DNA from: Naegleria gruberi | Taxonomy: Eukaryota | Assembly (NCBI GenBank): GCA_000004985.1 | Contig: GG738861.1 | Strand: one strand, 5' to 3' | DNA: 64,000 nucleotides | Shown here: piece by piece, positions 240-63,898 of the stretch | Position numbering within the stretch: position 1 is the stretch's first letter | How the letters are laid out: each line of letters starts with the position of its first letter | Made by a program: the position numbers and the translations under genes | The notes under the pieces: generated by a model | Told to the model about the DNA's origin: nothing | The model's database searches: none | The model's input: the letters and a program-made list of their open reading frames with translations, nothing else

Positions 240-1448
240 TTATAAAGTTTTTATTGGTGCAAAACGATAGTGAGCAGGTAATTTCGATCTATTGATAAAG
301 TCCACTGAACGATCATATTGTGGTAACAACTTGCAAACTTGCATGAGGATTTTACCTCTTGAATTTCTGGATTCGGCCATTGAAAATGCTGATTTGATAC
401 TCTCCAAAGACATTTCATTGAATGCTTCGGCAATTCGTGTTTGTATCTTTCCAGTGGTGTGATATTCTGCCAATTGTTCGAGTGTATCCGATTGATTTTT
501 AGTATTGATTGTGAAAAAGACATATTCAGGACCTAGACCTAAAGTTGAAATGACCCTTCTCCATGAATTGTAAGTTCCAATAGATATCATTTTGAGAAGT
601 GAAATTGGTTCATTAGCAAGACCAACTTGTATATATTTTGATTGTCTAGATCTGAGGAATTTCCAAGCTCTCTTCTTCAAATCCTTATCTCCAATAAGGT
701 CGATAATAACATCCACATCAGGTGTATTATATTCAAAATCTTTTACAGTTTCTCCTTCTTTAATTTCATTCTTATCCTCCACTTTGGCATCTCCATAAAT
801 TGAAAATGTTGAGAATGGTTTCAAATCCTTCACAATTTCCATACCAGCATCAGTTGTGCATCCTGCATAAACTTCTGCTTCTAAAACATTTCTAGCGTAT
901 TGAACACAATAAGATCCAACATTTCCAGAAGCTCCCAAAATTAAAACTCTTGACCCCTTCTTTACCTTTCCAATATTCACTAAACTTTGATGAGCAGTCA
1001 ATCCTACCATCGGAATTGTACTTGCTTCAGCGTGTGAAAGTTCCTTTGGTTTCAATGCAATAGATTCCTCATGAAAAATATTATATTCAGCCAAACATCC
1101 TCCTTCTCCATTAATTCCAAATACTTCATCTCCAACTTTAAATCTCGATGCTGATGATCCTGTCTGTACCACAATACCACTCATATCCGATGAAGGTATC
1201 AATGGAAATGATGGTTTTCCGAGGAGAATATTTTGAAAGAAACCACTCCTAATTTTATAATCAAAAGGATTAATACTCGAATAGACAATCTTAACTAGAA
1301 CACTCCTCTCCAATTCCTTTGATGATTTTTTACTCGACTCGAAGGAAGGAACAGGAGTAAATTGATCAGAATATTGCAACACGTCCAAGCCTCCATATTT
1401 TTGATAGTAAATGGCTCTCATGGTTGGAGGAAGTGATTGTGATGACAT
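240..1448 (-). CDS. Medium-chain dehydrogenase/reductase (zinc-type alcohol dehydrogenase / quinone oxidoreductase-like), about 402 aa with a short C-terminal extension
   Basis: Continuous ORF. It has the Rossmann NAD(P)-binding motif 'VLILGASGNVGSYCVQYA' and an N-terminal GroES-like region ('KVGDEVFG'). The core ends in the family-typical '...GKILMQV'. The start is a real ATG. Confidence 0.7.
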   Translation of the reverse strand: MSSQSLPPTMRAIYYQKYGGLDVLQYSDQFTPVPSFESSKKSSKELERSVLVKIVYSSINPFDYKIRSGFFQNILLGKPSFPLIPSSDMSGIVVQTGSSASRFKVGDEVFGINGEGGCLAEYNIFHEESIALKPKELSHAEASTIPMVGLTAHQSLVNIGKVKKGSRVLILGASGNVGSYCVQYARNVLEAEVYAGCTTDAGMEIVKDLKPFSTFSIYGDAKVEDKNEIKEGETVKDFEYNTPDVDVIIDLIGDKDLKKRAWKFLRSRQSKYIQVGLANEPISLLKMISIGTYNSWRRVISTLGLGPEYVFFTINTKNQSDTLEQLAEYHTTGKIQTRIAEAFNEMSLESIKSAFSMAESRNSRGKILMQVCKLLPQYDRSVDFINRSKLPAHYRFAPIKTL

Positions 1449-2159: not shown

Positions 2160-3037
2160 ATGGTGAACTTTTCAAAGCAAAAAAACATGTCAGCAACTGA
2201 GATGCAACCAAAATCTTATCCCATCTTTGCATTCCTTCGTGACTTTTCCATCACAGGAGGAGTGTATTTTGCCTCGTGTACAATAACAAATCCCATTAGA
2301 GGGGCTGTATTCCACTTGGGAACACAAGACATTTTTTCTGATAAACCAAAATATACAGGAATAATCAATTATCTTGTAAATACTGTTAAGAATAATGGGA
2401 TTAGAGGCTTATGGGCTTTCAATGTTGGAATTTATTTGAGAGAAGTGTCAGGTGTCGCCTTTAACTTTGCTTTTCATGCATCATTCAAGAAAATTCTTCC
2501 ACAATTTTCTCCAGTCAATAATCAATTGGAATACATGTTGATGCAATTCATATCTGGTGGACTAGCAGTTCTTACCACAAGAAGTTTCCAACATCCTCTC
2601 GATTTTTTATCTACTTATGAATATCGTGATCTAAAACCAGGATTTAGAGCTTGCTTTAATGGACTTGGTGATGTAGTATGATTTATGGTGGTTTATATTT
2701 TGGATTATTTGATATTTGGAAAGAAATGAGAAGGAATCAACATTCCTTTGTGGAAAAACTTGGTGTGGCTCATGGAATTTCCCTTATTTCTACAATAGCA
2801 ATTTATCCAGTTGGAATGGCTAAAAGAGAAGCATTTGAAAAAGCACACAACCTTGTATCTCAAAGGAAATTCTATAATGGTACCTTAAAAGAATTATTTA
2901 ACATTGGAAAAGAACAAGGAGTGAAAGGTTTGTTTAGAGGGCTCTCTGGTGGATACCCTATTCTTTCAAGTATTAAACCAGCTTGTACTTTGGTGCTATT
3001 TGATGAAATACGTGGATGGTTATTGAAACAAGAATAG
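2160..3037 (+). CDS. Mitochondrial carrier family (SLC25-like) protein, with the reading frame interrupted near 2676-2681 (apparent +1 frameshift)
   Basis: Two overlapping ORFs (2160..2681 and 2678..3037) together give about 292 aa, the size of one carrier. The end of repeat 2 ('GFRACFNGLGDVV') continues in the other frame as 'IYGGLYFGLFDIWKE'. Repeat 3 follows with the 'PVGMAKRE' signature and '...GLFRG'. No GT-AG intron reconciles the frames without deleting the conserved 'F..YE..K' helix. Confidence 0.6.
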
Positions 3038-3048
3038 AAAATGTATTT

Positions 3049-4172
3049 TTATGGAGATAGTTCATTAATTGTTGTGATGATTTGAATGTCAGTCAGTAAT
3101 TTCCTCAGATAAATATTATACATAGTTGTTATCATTCTATTGGTGATTGGAAGTAAACATGGAGAAATAAAAGGAGTGGTGACATTATCAAAGATTAGTT
3201 CAGTAACTGATCTTACTTCTTCTTCTGAAGTTACATTAACAATATGATAAGAATCGAGATGAAATGAAACTCTTTCCAAATATTCTGTTATGATGGAATT
3301 AATAACTATTCTTTCATTGTAATCATTTGAAATTATTTCCAATTCTGGCCTCACAACTGAATTAATCTTCCTACTATATTCCATTCTTTTCTGCAATTTC
3401 TTTACCAGAATATCTGGCTTTGTAAAGAGAATTACTTTACGAGCATCAGAAAGAAGCCCATTTCCAAACAATTTTCCTATCATTTCCAAAGAATCATTCA
3501 TCACTTCTACATTATTATACTCCACTAAATTAAATTCTGAAAGGGAGACTGTGTAGATCAAAATTTTGATATTTTCAATACAGTAGATCCACTTTCTTCT
3601 TTCAGATCTTCTTCCAAATGCATCAAGAAATTCAACATTTGAATTATTCCAAATAGTTCTATAAGAAGTTATTCCACTGCTTCTCAATTTAATTAATGAG
3701 AAAGGATCAAATATTTTCTTTCTTTCAATTCTTGTGACAAACTCTTCCACATTTTCATATAACATTGCATTCTTAGCCCAGTTTGATTCATAATACTCTT
3801 TAAAGAATGGACAATTCCACAATTTTACCAATAGCCACATGCTGAATCATCTTGTATCCTTTGGATAAAACTTTCGTCAGTAGTTGATTCGAATATATTT
3901 CCCATATCTTCATCAAGATGTTCAACTATTTTTCTTAACTGCTGCTTTGCCTCCTCCTTATCCATCGAGTAATAAATTCGTTCAATAATCCAAAAACTAG
4001 CAAGTTGTAAATTATATTCGAATTTGTCATCATCAAAGTTTCTAATAGTGCATCTTTGAACGGATCGAAAAAAAGTTGATTTACCAGAATGAGATGATCC
4101 CAGTATTAGAACTTTTTGGAGGTTTTTGTCTTCTTTGTTAGCACGCTTGGATTTCGATTTGGATAAACCCAT
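3049..4172 (-). CDS. Heterotrimeric G-protein alpha subunit-like gene, frame-disrupted near 3826-3840 and carrying non-canonical catalytic residues (possible pseudogene)
   Basis: The N-terminal half, 'MGLSKSKSK...KVLILGSSHSGKSTFF', is a myristoylation-type start plus P-loop. The C-terminal half in another frame reads '...RSERRKWIYCIENIKILIYTVSLSEF...KVILFTKPDIL', corresponding to switch II and NKxD. The two halves are out of frame, and I tested for a GT-AG intron of compatible phase and found none. The switch-II motif 'DVGGQ' reads 'DAFGRR' and the NKxD motif reads 'TKPD'. Confidence 0.55.
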
Positions 4173-4272
4173 TTTTTTGAATTAAAACTATTTAAATATT
4201 AAATTGTTAAATACATAATATTAAATATTTCCATTAATTAATAGAAAATGCTATCATCACATTCAAATATTG

Positions 4273-4650
4273 ATGATGAGGAAATTTCTACTGGTACTGG
4301 AGAGAATGATACATGATTGTGAGCAAATGCTTTCTTTTTTACAAAAGATTTCTCTCGCTCTTAATGAGATCCACAAAGATGATTACGTTCATGGAGATAT
4401 TAAGCCAGAACACATCTGGATCTCTCCAGAGGGCACTAGAGTTGGCTCAAACTCAGCTGATATCTACTCATTAGGACTTTCCATCCTCCAAATATTGTAT
4501 GGAAGCAGTGATCCCAATTACATTCGAAACAACAAAGAAAAGCTTTTGGAAAATTTAACTTGTAATGAGCTTAGGTATTCTTGAAAAGATGTTGAAAGAC
4601 AATCCCTTAGAAAGATTTCAAAACGCTTCTCAATTAGTTTACTAGTCTCA
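4273..4650 (+). pseudogene. Protein kinase catalytic-domain relic (catalytic loop plus part of the C-lobe only, with an internal frameshift)
   Basis: 'HKDDYVHGDIKPEHIW' matches the HRDLKPEN catalytic loop and 'ADIYSLGLSILQIL' matches the DIWSLG motif. After a +1 shift near 4560-4583 the kinase-typical tail '...GILEKMLKDNPLERFQNASQLVY*' appears. There is no glycine loop, VAIK motif or alpha-C helix upstream. Only about 100 nt separate this fragment from the neighbouring gene's start, and the in-frame upstream sequence hits a stop without an ATG. Confidence 0.5.
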
Positions 4651-4729: not shown

Positions 4730-4802
4730 GCCGACATAGCTCAGTTGGGAGAGCGTAAGACTGAAGATCTTAAGGTCCCTGGTTCGATCCCTGGTGTCGG
4801 CA
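4730..4802 (+). tRNA. tRNA-Phe: tRNA-Phe (anticodon GAA), 73 nt, intronless
   Basis: The sequence is GCCGACATAGCTCAGTTGGGAGAGCGTAAGACTGAAGATCTTAAGGTCCCTGGTTCGATCCCTGGTGTCGGCA. The acceptor stem has 7 base pairs (GCCGACA/TGTCGGC) with discriminator A. The A-box TAGCTCAGTTGG and B-box GGTTCGATCC are present, and the anticodon loop CTGAAGA gives GAA. It is near-identical in arms to classic eukaryotic tRNA-Phe. A T-run follows (ggcaaatttta). Confidence 0.93.
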
Positions 4803-5560
4803 AATTTTAACTTTGAATCATTACTGCATTTTCAATATTTATTTAATCTTAGAATTTTGGTCTATTCGAAAGCAACAGAGTGAGTTTTTGTGTTGGATCT
4901 GTGTTGTGTTCAAGGAATTCTTTCGAATAACATAAACTAAACGAATACCACTTACCAAGAAGAGAACTATTTCAGTAGCAATAACGGAAAGGTATAATAC
5001 AAAGAGTGAAATATAAATTGGAGTGACGGCAAATCTAATTTCTTGAAATTTGAGCAACAAGTTGACCGTACCATTAGATACAGAAACAGTAACCATTACA
5101 ATCCAAAAATAACAGTTGATGTTCTTTTACCCATAACTGTTTGTAACTATTTCAATCCTAAATATTCGAAAGTAAAGAAAAACTTTCAAAATGGTCAAAA
5201 TGAAAGACATGATGAAACAACTGAAAGGAATCATTTGAAGGAAGGAATGACATTCTCCAAGAATGCAGTTGCCCACAGTAATTTCCATCACTGTCTCCTT
5301 ATCAATAGTTTATATTCACATGAAGTCCAGTCGAATTATAAATTAATCTAAAGAGCAAGGCAATAGCATGGTGAATACGAAACTGAGCATGACCCATGCA
5401 TTCTTTGATGAGTTTAGTTTGAAAATAAGAATCAAATAGATCCAATCATACACAAGAACAGGAAAATGAATTAAAAAAAAATTAATTTATCATTTTATTT
5501 TTAGAAAATTTAAAACCAAAAAGTTTTTGCCCCTTAAAAATAAAATTTAAATTAAAAATA

Positions 5561-5920
5561 ATGCCATCAAACTTCTCATCCGAACAATACAAACAACTTA
5601 ACAAACAAGTTACACCACCAGCTGCAACATTTGAAAGATTGCAACAAAAAACTCCATCTTCTAAAGCAGCTCCAGTCCTCAACAATCTTCCAACTACTCC
5701 ATCAAAGGCAACACAAAGCAAGACTGTGAACTCTTTATTAACCGGAATTAAAAACCTTCCATTGGAAGCTGCTCAATTTAAAAAGAAGAAGGGTGCCGGT
5801 CTTGTCGCTCTCGCTTTAGGTTCATTGATTGTTGGTTCTTATTCCTACACTATCAAGAGTATGAAACAAGAAAACTTTGCCGATGTTGTCATTCCAGATA
5901 CTTTGAAGCTCAAAGAATAA
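5561..5920 (+). CDS. Hypothetical small protein (119 aa) with a C-terminal transmembrane segment, i.e. a tail-anchored topology
   Basis: Real ATG in an A-rich context. It has an S/T/P-rich N-terminal region and one hydrophobic helix, 'GAGLVALALGSLIVGSYSYTI', near the C-terminus. I recognise no family. Confidence 0.35.
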   Translation: MPSNFSSEQYKQLNKQVTPPAATFERLQQKTPSSKAAPVLNNLPTTPSKATQSKTVNSLLTGIKNLPLEAAQFKKKKGAGLVALALGSLIVGSYSYTIKSMKQENFADVVIPDTLKLKE

Positions 5921-46880: not shown

Positions 46881-48426
46881 TTATTTATTGCAACTATCTT
46901 TCATTTCAATATCGTCAGTTTCATTGGCCTTTTCTACAGCATCCTTATATTCCTCTTCAGAGAGGTATGGTCGAATGAGATCGAGTTTACCAATTCTTTG
47001 CAATCCTCTTCTCAATAATTTGGCCATACGAGGGCTTCTCTTAACAAGATCAGAATAAACCAAATGGACATTGGAGCTGTCACAAAAGTTTTGAGTGACT
47101 GCAAAGGTATCATCCAAATTCAAGACCATATGCCACCAAGTACTTGGTACAAAGATTAAATCACCAGGATATTGAACACATTCCCAAGGTCTTCTTCCTT
47201 GATTAAGGGCTTCATAATATTCATTGGTCAACCATTGAATTGGTTCAGAACAAGGTACATAGCTTGGAACTGGTTGAGCATTGTCCTTAATTTCAAATTC
47301 ATCTTCATAAATCTTGTTAATTTTACCTTCGTGTAATAATTTAGTCTTGATTTGCTTTTCGAATTGCAACTTTTCTTGAATCATTTCTTGTTCTGCACTC
47401 TTCATTTCTTCAATTGCTTCCTCCAAATCTTCACTCACATGACTCATTGGATAGAAGAGCCATCTCTTACGACCACTCAATAAGGCATTCCAAGCACTTG
47501 TCAAGTATGGATCCATGTGGAACTAATTACTCTGTTTAGTATAATTTAACACAAATAATACTTACTTGAGTACCACTTCTTGCAGGTCCAACAACCAGCC
47601 ATCTAAAGAGTGGTCTTTCATCAAGTGATAGACATTGCTCGAAAAAGTCTTCCTTGAATAATTGTGGAATTTCATATTCATCCAAAAGTCTTACATCTCT
47701 TTCTGCAAACTTTGAATCAAAAACATAGATTGGATTTTCATCTTGATTATGTTTCATATAATTGGCATAATTTTGAAACTTGATTTTGATATTGCCTTCC
47801 TTTCTGTGTTCATCGTATTTACTCAAATCCTTTCCTTCCTTTTTATCTTGAAGATATTCTCTGTACAATTCTGAATAATGAGGACCCAAGTGTGAAACTT
47901 GTTGATCTGTTTTAAATTCAACTTCACCATACTTTTCCAAGAATGAATCCAATTTCCAATTAGTCATGGCTTTCCAGCTTGAAAGAGCTCCTGTAATAAT
48001 TACAGGAATTTGAAACTTGTTATACTTTTCAGTAAATTGTTCATAAGTAATACTCTCGGCAGGTATTCTTTCAATGTGTGAAAATGGAATATCAAAAAGT
48101 GACATGTCAAATTGAGATCTACTCCATCTACTGTACAAGGTACCTGAAAATCCAGTAAATGGACATGGTTTCTCAATCTTTTTACTCAACCACCATGCAT
48201 GGATATAGGTATATTTCCATGATTTTTCATACCAAAAGTTTCCTTGAAATTCATTCAATGTAAATTGTCTCCACATACTATGATCTTCACTCAATACGAG
48301 TAGAGTTTTAGAAACCAATGAAAGATTACAAAGCTCACTCTTTGATAGGTATGGAATGATAATTTCAACAATACCATCATCAGGAATTTCCTGGAGTAAA
48401 CCCAATCCTTTTCTAATTATCATCAT
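46881..48426 (-). CDS. F-box / JmjC-domain protein (2-oxoglutarate/Fe(II)-oxygenase fold); two exons
   Basis: Exon 1 is 48426..47566. It carries the F-box 'IIPYLSKSELCNLSLVSKTLLVLSEDHSMWRQF' and the JmjC N-terminal part up to '...LVVGPARSGTQ'. The intron is 47565..47523 (43 nt, GTAAGT..TACTAAAC..TAG), in phase 0. Exon 2 is 47522..46881 and begins 'FHMDPYLTSAWNALLSGRKRWLFYP', which carries the HxD. The second His is in '...DLIFVPSTWWHMVLNLDDTFAVTQNF'. Confidence 0.8.
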
Positions 48427-56617: not shown

Positions 56618-58241
56618 TTACTTTCCAAATATTTTTAATCTTTGAATTTCCAATTGTGATTGAATATGATTTAAATCAGTGTTTTGATCCAAAAGCACTT
56701 TGGTTTGAGTTGAATCATTCATTAGAGTGAAGTGCTCAAATAAAGGTTGTTTTAAAAGGATGGAATCATCCATCTCCGTGTTAAAGGTGTCTGAATTTTC
56801 TTGTGAAATTTTCATAGTATCTGAGAGCACCACAAAAGGAATATTGTAAAATCTGGAAATCGAATAGAGTACGCTTGTGCCAGTCTTGTTAGAAATTACA
56901 ATGTCTCCATGACTATAATGGATTGAATCTGATCCTACACACATAAGATCAACCTTTCCAGAACGTGAGAGTAAAGCAACTGCTGCTTCAGTGCAAACTT
57001 GAACTCTTAGATTTTTGATACCCTGATCTAAGGCAAAGTCCTTCAGAGATTTAGCTGTTTTGTACCCTTCCTTTTCTGGCTGAGACTCTGTACAATAGAT
57101 GGTTAAATCAATGGATGCATGTTTTGCATGTAAGTCTAACATTAAATCTTTCAATGATTTAATAACAACACTGCTCCAACTGTGGGTCAATATTGAGATT
57201 TTCTGGGTGTTATCTTTTAAAAATTCTGATTTCACATAATTTTGAAACTTATTTGATAGTAACTGAGTATTGTTTGATATCTTAATGCCAAATTTGTTCA
57301 ATCTGTCTTTCATTTTCTGTACCATATTTTCAAAAGTTTGTTCAGAAATTTGTTTGACAATACTATCCTGATCAAATTGTAATTCACCATTCATTATTTC
57401 TACAAGAGATTGAACAGCCACATTCCTAATCATTGGCATTTCAATTCTACATTGATCTAAAATCCAAACAATGTCTCTCAGTTTCGAAGTTAAAAAAACA
57501 GCTCTCATGCTATCCATATCTATTGAAGAATTCATCAATTTGAAATAATCTGGTATATCTTCAGATGAAAATAAGTTCAAGGCCTTTTTCATAATATCTA
57601 TCGTTTTCAAAGCAATGGTAGTTGCACCATCTGTAAAATTATTAACAATGGTATTGTCTATTTCTACCAATAATTCAGTCTCCAATCCATAGAAAAAGTA
57701 TAATCTGTGAAGAGTGTCTCTTAGATTGGGAACTGTTTCATGTAGGGTGGGAGTGGTGCTGTCATTCATACCCTTCCTCAGAAATTGCTCAGTATCAAAA
57801 ACATTGAATGAATCGTGTTCCCAATCAATCTTGAATCCTAAATTATCAAGTTGGCTAGGGATATCTTTTGAATTTTCTACTGACAATCTAAATAGAAAAG
57901 GATAAACAATAAATCCCTTTCCATTATTTAAAGGCAAATATTGTGGACGACCACTTCGGATGAAGTTCAAATGTTTTCCAACTTGTAATTGTGTTTCTTC
58001 TTGGATTTCTCTGAAGGCACTCCATCGGGCTTTCCACAAAATAATCACCAACCCTATAATCAAACCGATCATTTGAAGAATAATCCACAGGTGGATTGTT
58101 AACCAAGTCAATAGAACCAGAAATTGAAGCCCACATTTTCGGATAAGAATTAACCTTCTCCGATCTTTTAAATAGTAGAATATGTGATTTTTCTTCCTTT
58201 ATCACTTCAATAAAGCCAGTGGCTACTCTTCTCCATTTCAT
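56618..58241 (-). CDS. Nudix hydrolase domain fused to an eIF-2B / methylthioribose-1-phosphate-isomerase-like (IF-2B family) domain; the reading frame switches once near 58060-58115 (unannotated intron or frameshift)
   Basis: The upstream ORF (58241..57924) reads 'MKWRRVATGFIEVIKEEKSHILLFKRSEKVNSYPKMWASISGSID', which looks like Nudix beta-strands and the 'W.lPGG' region. The Nudix box continues in the other frame as '...AFREIQEETQLQVG'. Downstream, '...ILTHSWSSVV...IYCTESQPEKEGYKTAKSL...MCVGSDSIHYSHGDIVISNKTGTSVLYSISRFYNIPFVVLSDTMKI' aligns to the IF-2B-family core 'VLTHCNTG...ETRP.lQG.RLTa.EL...GADRv.aNGDtaNKIGTy.lA..A....IPFyV'. A candidate 46- or 55-nt intron with a GTTTGA donor would join the frames. 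Confidence 0.55.
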
Positions 58242-62956: not shown

Positions 62957-63898
62957 ATGGAAACATTACAAGATGAGTGGATTATTATTTGTTCTTTTAT
63001 GAATGTTAGAAGTTTATTAAATTTTCAATTGGCATGCAGGGATTTCTATCGGATTGGATCTTGTGATATCATATGGAAGAGTATTTATCAATATTATTGG
63101 AAAAGTTGGTCATCAGATTTGCATCCGAATCAAAATATAAAGTTTGGATTGTGTGGTCATCTCTCCATCATTAACAAGGAAATGCCAACAGAAAATTACA
63201 AATATCATGTGATGGGAGTGTATGAATTGCAACATTTAAGAACGGATGGGAAGATTAAATTTCAAAAATATGAGTCAATACTGAAAAAACCACTTGATGA
63301 AATGCATTCGAAAGTGACTCACATGAAGATATCAATTTTAGGAGAAGGAAATGGAGTCACATCTCTGTTGATGAGATTGAAATTAGGAGCATTCCCACAA
63401 ACAGCATTAAATATTGGAAGTCTGCCGGCTATGGAAACCTTTAGGCATGAAACTGTAAAAGAAGGAAGAAAATTCTCAATTGATTTCATTGACCTTTCAG
63501 ATATTGGATATTCACGATTAATGCCATTGCTTTTGTATGGTTGTGATCTTTTCGTTCCAACATTTTCTCTCAATAATGCGCATTCTTCATTTGAAAGAGT
63601 TGAGATCAAGTGGATCCCAACAATTGAACATTACATGTGCAATGCACCAATTATAATATTGGGAACGAAACTAGATGAAAAAAGTAATACACACGTTATT
63701 ACAGAGAAGAAGTTATCACAACAGTCTAATTGTATCACTTATTATGAAATATCAGCACTCACAGCAGATGATGACCAAATGAATCAATTTGTTGAGCTAT
63801 GTGTCAAATCTGTTCTCATGACTCACAAACCAATAATAACAAGTGAGAACAGCTTTGCAACAACTTTTGGAAAACCAAAAAAATGTTTCCTTCAATAG
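62957..63898 (+). CDS. F-box-like N-terminus fused to a degenerate Ras-superfamily small-GTPase-like domain (313 aa)
   Basis: The F-box-like segment is 'WIIICSFMNVRSLLNFQLACRDFYRIGSCDIIWKSI'. The G1-like 'KISILGEGNGVTSLLM' lacks the P-loop Lys/Ser. The G4 motif 'ILGTKLDE' (N/TKxD) is retained. The later part resembles a Rho/Ras fold ('ISALTADDDQMNQFVELCVKSVL'). Confidence 0.45.
   Translation: METLQDEWIIICSFMNVRSLLNFQLACRDFYRIGSCDIIWKSIYQYYWKSWSSDLHPNQNIKFGLCGHLSIINKEMPTENYKYHVMGVYELQHLRTDGKIKFQKYESILKKPLDEMHSKVTHMKISILGEGNGVTSLLMRLKLGAFPQTALNIGSLPAMETFRHETVKEGRKFSIDFIDLSDIGYSRLMPLLLYGCDLFVPTFSLNNAHSSFERVEIKWIPTIEHYMCNAPIIILGTKLDEKSNTHVITEKKLSQQSNCITYYEISALTADDDQMNQFVELCVKSVLMTHKPIITSENSFATTFGKPKKCFLQ

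What the first reader, a model, noticed from the sequence alone, without database searches (positions are those of the whole stretch)
2160..4650. A 2.5-kb patch where three consecutive genes (mitochondrial carrier, G-alpha, protein-kinase relic) all carry frame disruptions
Each gene is recognisable by family motifs but needs a plus-or-minus 1 shift to read through, and I found no GT-AG intron that fixes any of them. The kinase-like element additionally lacks its whole N-lobe. Three lesions in adjacent genes suggest either a local low-quality stretch of the assembly (indels) or a small region of relaxed selection with decaying paralogues.
Basis: seen in the sequence. Interest (0 to 1): 0.5.

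Follow-up and report, generated by a model that had tools for sequence, protein, structure and literature searches.

The report
Three broken neighbouring genes in Naegleria
In the Naegleria gruberi reference genome, a transporter-like gene and a G-protein-like gene that sit next to each other are each broken by a small deletion, and a fragment of a kinase-like gene lies beside them; this looks like ordinary gene decay (or partly a sequencing error), not a new mechanism.

Summary
The window is a Naegleria gruberi NEG-M scaffold.

- **Carrier (2187-3037, +).** This is NAEGRDRAFT_66225, a very derived ADP/ATP-carrier-like gene. It is broken by a 10-nt deletion at 2673/2674, not a 1-nt slip. An independent metagenome contig from a close relative (about 97% identical) has those 10 nt and an intact 292-aa ORF. 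Between the two strains the gene shows 10 non-synonymous and 3 synonymous changes (pN/pS 0.93). The neighbouring dehydrogenase gives 0.14.
- **G-alpha-like gene (4172-3049, -).** This is NAEGRDRAFT_66226. It lines up residue for residue with an intact N. gruberi paralogue except for one missing base at about 3835. No other defect was found. I cannot tell a real mutation from a base-calling error.
- **Kinase-like element (4273-4645, +).** This is a remnant with no N-lobe, no DFG-APE segment and a +1 shift. It has generic kinase similarity only.

Introns and programmed frameshifting are excluded, because the intact homologues are collinear across the breaks and there is no slippery site. The best reading is recent inactivation of dispensable, lineage-specific genes plus an older relic. 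Interest is low.

The parts
2187..2681 (+). Carrier-like gene, 5' part. It equals the public model NAEGRDRAFT_66225 (164 aa) and ends at a premature TGA at 2679-2681.
   Evidence: Exact match to P0005 / XP_002678546. Pfam Mito_carr E 1.7e-8.
2667..2680 (+). Site of the 10-nt deletion, between 2673 and 2674. The window reads GGTGATG|TAGTATG; the relative reads GGTGAGG-TTGCACCAAT-TAGTATG.
   Evidence: DNA alignment A3 with ENA contig L002. The intact 292-aa ORF is P0114.
2675..3037 (+). Carrier-like gene, 3' part, in the -1 frame. The stop is TAG at 3035-3037.
   Evidence: tblastn places P0114 residues 167-283 on 2675-3025, 96% identical. Pfam Mito_carr E 2.6e-5.
3026..3051 (.). Junction of the two convergent genes. 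Only 11 nt separate the two stop codons (3037 and 3049). The relative carries about 181 extra nt here.
   Evidence: Alignment A3; the inserted segment was extracted.
3825..4172 (-). G-alpha-like gene, N-terminal ORF of 115 aa. It has an MG start and the P-loop GSSHSGKST. It is not annotated in the public model.
   Evidence: Pfam G-alpha profile positions 11-88. tblastn places paralogue P0107 residues 1-111 on 4172-3837.
3834..3837 (-). Frame break of the G-alpha-like gene. One residue of the paralogue corresponds to only 2 nt (3836-3835), so one base is missing.
   Evidence: Protein alignment A2 is collinear across the junction. tblastn frames are -3 then -2.
3049..3840 (-). G-alpha-like gene, C-terminal ORF. 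It equals the public model NAEGRDRAFT_66226 (263 aa).
   Evidence: Exact match to P0004 / XP_002678655. Pfam G-alpha 2.4e-30. The repaired protein matches profile positions 11-332 of 333 at 138 bits.
4273..4584 (+). Kinase-like remnant, first frame. It covers subdomain V to the catalytic loop (HGDIKPEH), then runs directly into subdomain IX (DIYSLG). There is no N-lobe and no DFG-APE segment.
   Evidence: Pfam Pkinase profile positions 92-134 only, at 26.7-27.7 bits, below the cut-off. phmmer best hit 1.1e-14. Alignments.
4571..4645 (+). Kinase-like remnant, last 24 codons in the +1 frame (GILEKMLKDNPLERFQNASQLVY, stop at 4643-4645).
   Evidence: Reading of the sequence. Self tblastn shows frame 1 then frame 2. 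The segment aligns to subdomain XI of kinases.
4730..4802 (+). tRNA-Phe (GAA). Intact right-hand neighbour that bounds the patch.
   Evidence: ARAGORN.

Best explanation
The patch lies in the Naegleria gruberi NEG-M reference scaffold. It holds two recently inactivated, lineage-specific genes and one older gene remnant.

1. **Carrier.** A highly derived ADP/ATP-carrier-like SLC25 gene lost 10 nt at the start of transmembrane helix 4. The reading frame shifts and stops after 164 codons. The same gene is intact in a closely related environmental Naegleria. It has been changing at about the neutral rate, so it was probably already dispensable.
2. **G-alpha-like gene.** The convergent neighbour belongs to a Naegleria-specific G-alpha-like subfamily. 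It lacks one base in the helical-domain region, which cuts it into 115- and 263-codon ORFs. Everything else about it looks functional, so the lesion is very young, or it is a base-calling error.
3. **Kinase-like piece.** The piece upstream of the G-alpha-like gene is a dead remnant.

Shown directly: the lesions, their exact nature, and the absence of introns or recoding signals. Inferred: that these are true null alleles in the strain, and that relaxed selection on dispensable genes explains why they sit together.
For: - **Organism and gene models:** (ADH-like gene, G-alpha C-terminal model, COA3-like gene; carrier model P0005).
- **Intact carrier in an independent assembly:** 292 aa, 97% nt identity, with the extra 10 nt.
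- **The longer state is ancestral, by inference.** It keeps the ORF open. By my own reading of the sequences, FNGLGEVAPISMIYGGLYFG matches YNGFGVSVAGIIPYRGVYFG in length. The MAFFT alignments place the gap differently.
- **Selection:** carrier pN/pS 0.93 (10 non-synonymous, 3 synonymous); omega <= 0.2 is rejected at p = 0.011. The ADH control gives 0.14 at the same pS of about 0.015.
- **Lost carrier motifs.** The carrier has lost most matrix-network PX[DE]XX[KR] residues and the RRRMMM signature.
- **G-alpha-like gene:**
  - It is collinear with the intact paralogues P0106 and P0107 across the break, with a deficit of one base.
  - The repaired protein gives one end-to-end Pfam match of 138 bits.
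  - It keeps 60 of 90 columns that are invariant in three subfamily members.
- **Kinase remnant:** significant but generic kinase similarity, with the N-lobe and DFG-APE missing.
- **Real introns in the window:** they are 43-59 nt with GTAAGT or GTATGT donors. No such intron fits the carrier break; the three formal fits at the G-alpha break (149-287 nt) would remove conserved sequence.
Against: - No reads or transcripts of strain NEG-M could be inspected, so a sequencing or assembly error is not excluded. This applies most to the 1-nt G-alpha lesion.
- The difference in pN/pS between carrier and control rests on 13 and 6 substitutions. A direct comparison is not significant (Fisher p = 0.13).
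- The carrier keeps a 292-codon open frame in the relative despite near-neutral change, so it may still be used there.
- No orthologue of this G-alpha-like gene from another strain was found. Constraint on it is therefore untested.
- The strain may be heterozygous, with an intact second allele that the assembly does not show.
Confidence: 0.65

Rival explanations
1. The frame breaks are errors of the Sanger draft assembly (a locally poor stretch), and the genes are intact in the organism.
For: - Three indels fall within 2.5 kb.
- The G-alpha-like gene has no defect other than one missing base, and it keeps its MG start, P-loop, DxxG motif and subfamily-conserved residues.
- A further possible frame break exists 53 kb away in the NUDIX/IF-2B gene. 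That would fit a general error rate.
Against: - A 10-nt deletion next to a substitution is not a typical base-calling error.
- Apart from that deletion, the carrier coding sequence agrees with an independent assembly without frame-disrupting indels up to the roughly 181-nt indel at its last codons. The adjacent ADH gene matches its contig at 98.9%.
- The kinase remnant's missing N-lobe and DFG-APE segment cannot be sequencing errors.
- The near-neutral pN/pS of the carrier fits real decay.
Confidence: 0.25
2. Unmodelled splicing (short or unusual introns) restores the frames, so the genes are normal.
For: Formal GT/GC-AG pairs with the right length class exist around both junctions. N. gruberi does have short introns.
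Against: - The intact relative (carrier) and the intact paralogues (G-alpha) are collinear with the window across the breaks. Nothing needs to be removed; instead, 10 nt and 1 nt are missing.
- The least costly candidate introns listed at each break would still delete 63 nt (carrier) or 93 nt (G-alpha) of ORF sequence that aligns to the homologues.
- No GTAAGT/GTATGT-type donor fits the carrier break. The only such fits at the G-alpha break are 149-287 nt long and would remove conserved sequence, unlike the three control introns.
Confidence: 0.02
3. The breaks are decoded by programmed ribosomal frameshifting, transcriptional slippage or RNA editing.
For: Both recent lesions need the same direction of shift (-1, that is, one base short).
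Against: - The only stretches where a shift could work are TGTAGTATGA (2672-2681) and TTCAGCATGTGGCTATTGGTAA (3846-3825, minus strand). Neither contains an X XXY YYZ heptamer or a homopolymer run (direct reading).
- The relative encodes the carrier in one frame, with 10 extra nt.
- As far as I know, nuclear insertional editing is not known in Naegleria.
Confidence: 0.02

Closest known systems
ADP/ATP carriers (SLC25A4/5/6, AAC family) of the mitochondrial carrier superfamily
   Same: The best database relatives are all ADP/ATP carriers, at 26-31% identity over about 90% of the length. The gene has the three-repeat layout. It keeps conserved blocks such as AFNFAF, YTGI, PLDF and YFGLFD.
   Different: - It is only about 30% identical, where true AACs have a mean column identity of about 60% in the same alignment.
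- It is about 21-24 residues shorter in repeat 2, and this is also true of the intact relative.
- The matrix-network motifs are mostly lost (PIRGAV, PLDFLS, PVGMAK).
- RRRMMM is replaced by KREAFE.
- In the window the gene is also frame-shifted by a 10-nt deletion.
N. gruberi G-alpha-like paralogue NAEGRDRAFT_59438 (P0106) and its relatives P0115, P0107 and P0108
   Same: - About 45% identity over the full length, collinear throughout.
- An end-to-end Pfam G-alpha match.
- Shared subfamily traits: [TV]KPD in place of NKxD, an Arg in place of the catalytic Gln in P0106 and in this gene, and a roughly 45-residue C-terminal extension FISPC..NRM..LTDIQIIT.
   Different: The window copy lacks one base and is split into two ORFs. 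Its G3 motif reads DAFGR where P0106 and P0107 have DVGG[RQ]. The loci of the relatives (L003, L004, L005) have different neighbouring genes.
Unitary pseudogenes or strain-specific null alleles of dispensable genes
   Same: There is a recognisable homologue of a working gene with a disabling indel. An intact copy exists in a close relative. Change is near-neutral.
   Different: The ORFs on either side of each break are still free of stop codons. Inactivation is therefore very recent, and for the G-alpha-like gene it is not proven.
Protein kinase catalytic domain (PF00069) and short kinase-like proteins such as metagenomic P0166
   Same: It has a catalytic-loop-like HGDIKPEH, DIYSLG (subdomain IX) and DNPLERF (subdomain XI). 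P0166 aligns with it from end to end at 37% identity and also lacks DFG-APE.
   Different: It has no N-lobe, no DFG and no APE. It scores below the Pfam cut-off and has a +1 shift before subdomain XI. No specific parent was found; the best hits are scattered over bacteria, a plant and an oomycete.

Membership tests
Mitochondrial carrier (SLC25) / ADP/ATP carrier | Three tandem Mito_carr repeats of about 100 residues | tested here: inconclusive
   Pfam finds repeat 1 (ORF1 residues 28-114) and repeat 3 (ORF2 residues 22-117). The intact relative P0114 gives 2 stretches. Repeat 2 is recognisable only in alignment and is about 21-24 residues short.
Mitochondrial carrier (SLC25) / ADP/ATP carrier | PX[DE]XX[KR] signature on the odd helices of all three repeats | tested here: not met
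   Read from alignments A1 and A4: PIRGAV, PLDFLS and PVGMAK. Each lacks at least one charged position.
Mitochondrial carrier (SLC25) / ADP/ATP carrier | AAC signature RRRMMM after the third PX[DE] motif | tested here: not met
   KREAFE stands at that position, both in the window and in the intact relative.
Mitochondrial carrier (SLC25) / ADP/ATP carrier | Uninterrupted reading frame | tested here: not met
   A 10-nt deletion at 2673/2674 leads to a premature TGA at 2679-2681. The frame is intact in ENA contig L002.
Heterotrimeric G-protein alpha subunit (PF00503) | Full-length match to the G-alpha profile, including the helical domain | tested here: met
   After adding one residue at the break, the protein scores 138 bits against profile positions 11-332 of 333 in one stretch.
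Heterotrimeric G-protein alpha subunit (PF00503) | P-loop GxxxxGK[ST] and an N-terminal MG lipidation start | tested here: met
   GSSHSGKST and MGLSKS, read from the translation.
Heterotrimeric G-protein alpha subunit (PF00503) | Catalytic Gln in DxxGQ and Asn in NKxD | tested here: not met
   DAFGR and TKPD. Paralogue P0106 also has R and VKPD, so these are subfamily traits rather than decay.
Heterotrimeric G-protein alpha subunit (PF00503) | Uninterrupted reading frame | tested here: not met
   The frame changes from -3 to -2 at 3837/3834, with one base missing.
Protein kinase (PF00069) | Score above the Pfam gathering cut-off | tested here: not met
   27.7 bits against a cut-off of 31.7, even after the frame is repaired.
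Protein kinase (PF00069) | N-lobe (Gly-rich loop, VAIK Lys, alpha-C Glu) | tested here: not met
   The match starts at profile position 92. Only about 100 nt lie between the element and the G-alpha start codon on the other strand. No plus-strand ORF of 50 aa or more lies between 3037 and 4270.
Protein kinase (PF00069) | DFG and APE motifs (activation segment) | tested here: not met
   HGDIKPEHIWISPEGTRVGSNSADIYSLG runs straight from the catalytic loop to subdomain IX. There are gaps of about 46-49 residues against P0116.
Spliceosomal intron | A GT-AG intron whose removal gives a protein collinear with homologues | tested here: not met
   The homologues are already collinear and need added bases, not removed ones. 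The control introns in the window are 43-59 nt with GTAAGT or GTATGT donors.
Programmed -1 ribosomal frameshift | Slippery heptamer X XXY YYZ within the overlap of the two frames | tested here: not met
   Direct reading of 2672-2681 and of 3846-3825 (minus strand).
Pseudogene / null allele | A disabling lesion plus relaxed constraint | tested here: inconclusive
   For the carrier the lesion is shown and pN/pS is 0.93, but this rests on 13 substitutions. For the G-alpha-like gene the lesion is shown but constraint was not testable. The kinase remnant has multiple lesions.

The most novel reading that the evidence does not exclude
The two convergent genes may have been silenced together by one local event, and then each picked up a frameshift while free of selection. 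In NEG-M only 11 nt separate their stop codons, whereas the relative has about 181 more. If NEG-M lost that segment, both genes would have lost their 3' ends at once. A related reading is that these are losses acquired during decades of axenic laboratory culture of NEG-M.
Probability: 0.1. Interest if true: 0.3.

Novelty: new member of a known kind. Interest (0 to 1): 0.15.

Why it matters
The main value is for annotation.
- NAEGRDRAFT_66225 and NAEGRDRAFT_66226 are deposited as short 'predicted proteins'. They are in fact truncated halves of a carrier-like gene and a G-alpha-like gene.
- Counts of carriers and G-alpha subunits in Naegleria should treat them as probably non-functional in NEG-M.
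- The case also shows that environmental metagenome contigs can separate true strain-specific lesions from assembly error in a protist reference genome.

It does not point to a new mechanism.

Tried and rejected
- **Ciliate-type codes, tiny introns and Trichomonas.** I considered these as source organisms first. The exact protein look-ups that identified N. gruberi ruled them out.
- **Intron enumeration.** I listed all frame-restoring GT/GC-AG introns. Many formal pairs exist, but all remove sequence that aligns to intact homologues.
- **Independent copies of the G-alpha locus.**
  - The public contig index has no record for the N. gruberi models.
  - Two JGI metagenome scans, with the G-alpha-like protein and with the intact carrier, found nothing.
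  - The ENA contig that carries the carrier stops 27 nt into the G-alpha gene.
- **Segmental duplication.** The contigs that carry relatives of the G-alpha-like gene (L003-L005) have unrelated neighbours. No second copy of the patch exists in the window.
- **Parent of the kinase remnant.** The word-indexed search found nothing. The full search found only generic kinases.
- **Literature.** Searches for the locus tags, accessions and the ENA project gave nothing relevant.
- **My first alignment of the carrier.** It put a 24-residue deletion exactly at the frameshift. The intact relative showed that this shortening is an in-frame lineage trait, and that the NEG-M-specific lesion is only the 10 nt.
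Full report
**Source and setting**

Exact look-ups place the window in a 507-kb scaffold of Naegleria gruberi.
- ORF 240-1448(-) is NAEGRDRAFT_66224.
- ORF 3049-3840(-) is NAEGRDRAFT_66226.
- ORF 5561-5920(+) is NAEGRDRAFT_66227.

The sequence is about 33% G+C throughout. The patch is bounded on the left by an intact dehydrogenase-like gene. On the right it is bounded by tRNA-Phe at 4730-4802 and a COA3-like gene.

Yes. Pfam recognises Mito_carr in both plus-strand ORFs (2160-2681 and 2678-3037) and G-alpha in both minus-strand ORFs (3825-4172 and 3049-3840). It finds a sub-threshold Pkinase match in 4270-4584 that covers only the catalytic-loop region. The public annotation models each of the first two genes as a single truncated ORF. 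The carrier model is 164 aa and the G-alpha model is the 263-aa C-terminal ORF. The kinase-like element was not checked against the public models.

**Carrier-like gene**

- **Family.** A protein search gave ADP/ATP carriers as the only relatives, at 26-31% identity, plus the gene's own model.
- **Intact relative.** The 90% cluster of that model holds a second member, P0114. It is 292 aa and comes from an ENA metagenome contig (L002, 1613 bp).
- **The lesion.** The contig is about 97% identical to the window. At the frame break the contig reads GGTGAGGTTGCACCAATTAGTATG, and the window reads GGTGATG----------TAGTATG. The lesion is therefore a 10-nt deletion between 2673 and 2674.
- **Which state is ancestral.** The longer version keeps one open frame. 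By my own reading of the sequences, its helix-4 segment FNGLGEVAPISMIYGGLYFG has the same length as YNGFGVSVAGIIPYRGVYFG of true carriers. The MAFFT alignments place the gap differently. I take the longer state as ancestral; this is an inference.
- **Derived features shared by both strains.** Both versions are about 21-24 residues shorter than AACs in repeat 2. Both lack most of the PX[DE]XX[KR] residues and the RRRMMM signature. These are lineage traits, not part of the NEG-M lesion.
- **Selection.** Between the two strains the gene differs by 10 non-synonymous and 3 synonymous changes, giving pN/pS 0.93. Omega of 0.2 or less is rejected at p = 0.011. The neighbouring dehydrogenase, compared with contig L001 from the same metagenome, gives 2 and 4 changes (pN/pS 0.14) at the same pS of about 0.015. 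The direct contrast between the two genes is not significant (p = 0.13).
- **Other differences from the relative.** It lacks about 207 nt upstream, including the ATG at 2160, so ATG 2187 is the likely start. It has about 181 extra nt just before the carrier stop.

**G-alpha-like gene**

- **Relatives.** A search with the joined protein found an intact N. gruberi paralogue, P0106 (NAEGRDRAFT_59438, 376 aa, about 45% identical). It also found P0107 from the ENA metagenome and P0108 from a Logan assembly. A cluster look-up added P0115, a near-identical ENA counterpart of P0106.
- **The lesion.** The alignment is collinear across the break. The window reads DSAC/(W)LLVKLW against DDCCEILVTLW in the paralogue. 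tblastn places P0107 residues 1-111 on 4172-3837 in frame -3, and residues 113-371 on 3834-3070 in frame -2. One residue therefore corresponds to two bases, so exactly one base is missing.
- **The rest of the gene.**
  - With one residue added, the protein matches the Pfam G-alpha profile over positions 11-332 of 333 in one stretch at 138 bits.
  - The odd motifs (TKPD, DAFGR, a long C-terminal tail) are shared with the paralogues.
  - The gene keeps 60 of 90 columns that are invariant in three subfamily members.
  - I found no second defect.
- **Limits.** No independent sequence of this gene could be obtained. A real mutation and a base-calling error remain equally open on the evidence for this gene alone.

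**Kinase-like element**

- The frame that is open from 4225 reads from subdomain V through HGDIKPEH. It then passes directly to DIYSLG. After a +1 shift near 4571-4575 it continues to DNPLERF...VY.
- It scores 27.7 bits against Pkinase, below the 31.7-bit cut-off.
- A full phmmer scan of 1.84 billion representatives gave 203 hits at E<=1e-3, the best at 1.1e-14. The ten hits I looked up come from bacteria, a plant, an oomycete and unnamed metagenome contigs, so no specific parent can be named.
- Pairwise alignments show a gap of about 46-49 residues where DFG-APE should be.
- One metagenomic protein, P0166, lacks the same segment and aligns from end to end at 37% identity.
- The G-alpha start codon at 4172 on the other strand leaves no room for an N-lobe.

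**Introns and recoding**

Three control genes in the window have clear short introns:
- 47565-47523, with donor GTAAGT;
- 6366-6316, with donor GTAAGT;
- 38994-38936, with donor GTATGT.

No such intron fits the carrier break. The three formal fits at the G-alpha break (149-287 nt) would remove conserved sequence. The homologues require added bases, not removed ones. The short stretches where a ribosome could change frame contain no slippery heptamer and no homopolymer run.

**Why are the lesions together?**

The two recent lesions sit in convergent neighbours whose stop codons are 11 nt apart. Both genes are lineage-specific and fast-evolving: the searches returned no closer relative for either outside this N. 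gruberi-like group. Co-location of dispensable genes is the simplest account. A shared silencing event at the roughly 181-nt indel is possible but untested. A local low-quality stretch is the main rival.

A further possible frame break lies at about 58,020 in a NUDIX/IF-2B gene. The NUDIX match appears only when two frames are joined. Weak intron alternatives score almost as well, so the background rate of such breaks in this assembly is not settled.

**Verdict**

The region is best read as ordinary recent gene inactivation plus an old relic in a draft reference genome. It has annotation value but little wider interest.

Noticed in passing
window 56618-58241 (-), junction near 58,020: A NUDIX + IF-2B gene appears split between two overlapping frames. 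Pfam NUDIX is detected only when the 105-aa ORF (58241-57924) is joined to the 497-aa ORF (26.2 bits). No GTAAGT-type intron fits. Weak GT-AG alternatives score 23-24 bits. This may be a fourth frame break in the window.
   Followed up: partly
window 3026-3051; L002 about 1386-1565: The carrier and G-alpha genes converge with only 11 nt between their stop codons. The related strain has about 181 extra nt here, which changes the carrier C-terminus (LLKQE* versus LLTTCTCTSST*). Which state is ancestral is unknown.
   Followed up: partly
window about 1997-2203 versus L002: A segment of about 207 nt upstream of the carrier, including the ATG at 2160, is absent from the related strain. Several smaller indels (4-75 nt) lie in the same intergenic region. 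The locus is rich in indels compared with the ADH gene next door.
   Followed up: partly
P0106, P0115, P0107 (L003, L004) and P0108 (L005): These form a small G-alpha-like subfamily that seems restricted to Naegleria-like organisms. It has [TV]KPD instead of NKxD, an Arg in place of the catalytic Gln in some members, and a conserved C-terminal extension FISPC..NR...TDI.IIT. Its function is unknown.
   Followed up: partly
P0166 (metagenomic, 366 aa): This kinase-like protein lacks the DFG-APE segment in the same way as the window's remnant. It aligns to the remnant from end to end at 37% identity. Some of the remnant's 'missing' parts could therefore be a family trait rather than decay.
   Followed up: no
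window 4839-5291 (-): Two short hydrophobic ORFs lie on the minus strand, with a GTAAGT donor at 4955. Together they suggest a small multi-exon membrane-protein gene ending close to tRNA-Phe. I did not model it.
   Followed up: no
window 46881-48426 (-) and 62957-63898 (+): Two F-box fusions: F-box + JmjC/Cupin_8 (split by a 43-nt intron) and F-box + Ras-like GTPase.
   Followed up: no
L001, L002, L003, L004 (ENA sample ERZ929261): One environmental metagenome holds contigs 97-99% identical to N. gruberi NEG-M, and also a second, more distant G-alpha-like sequence (P0107, 77% identical to P0106). It may contain more than one Naegleria lineage.
   Followed up: no
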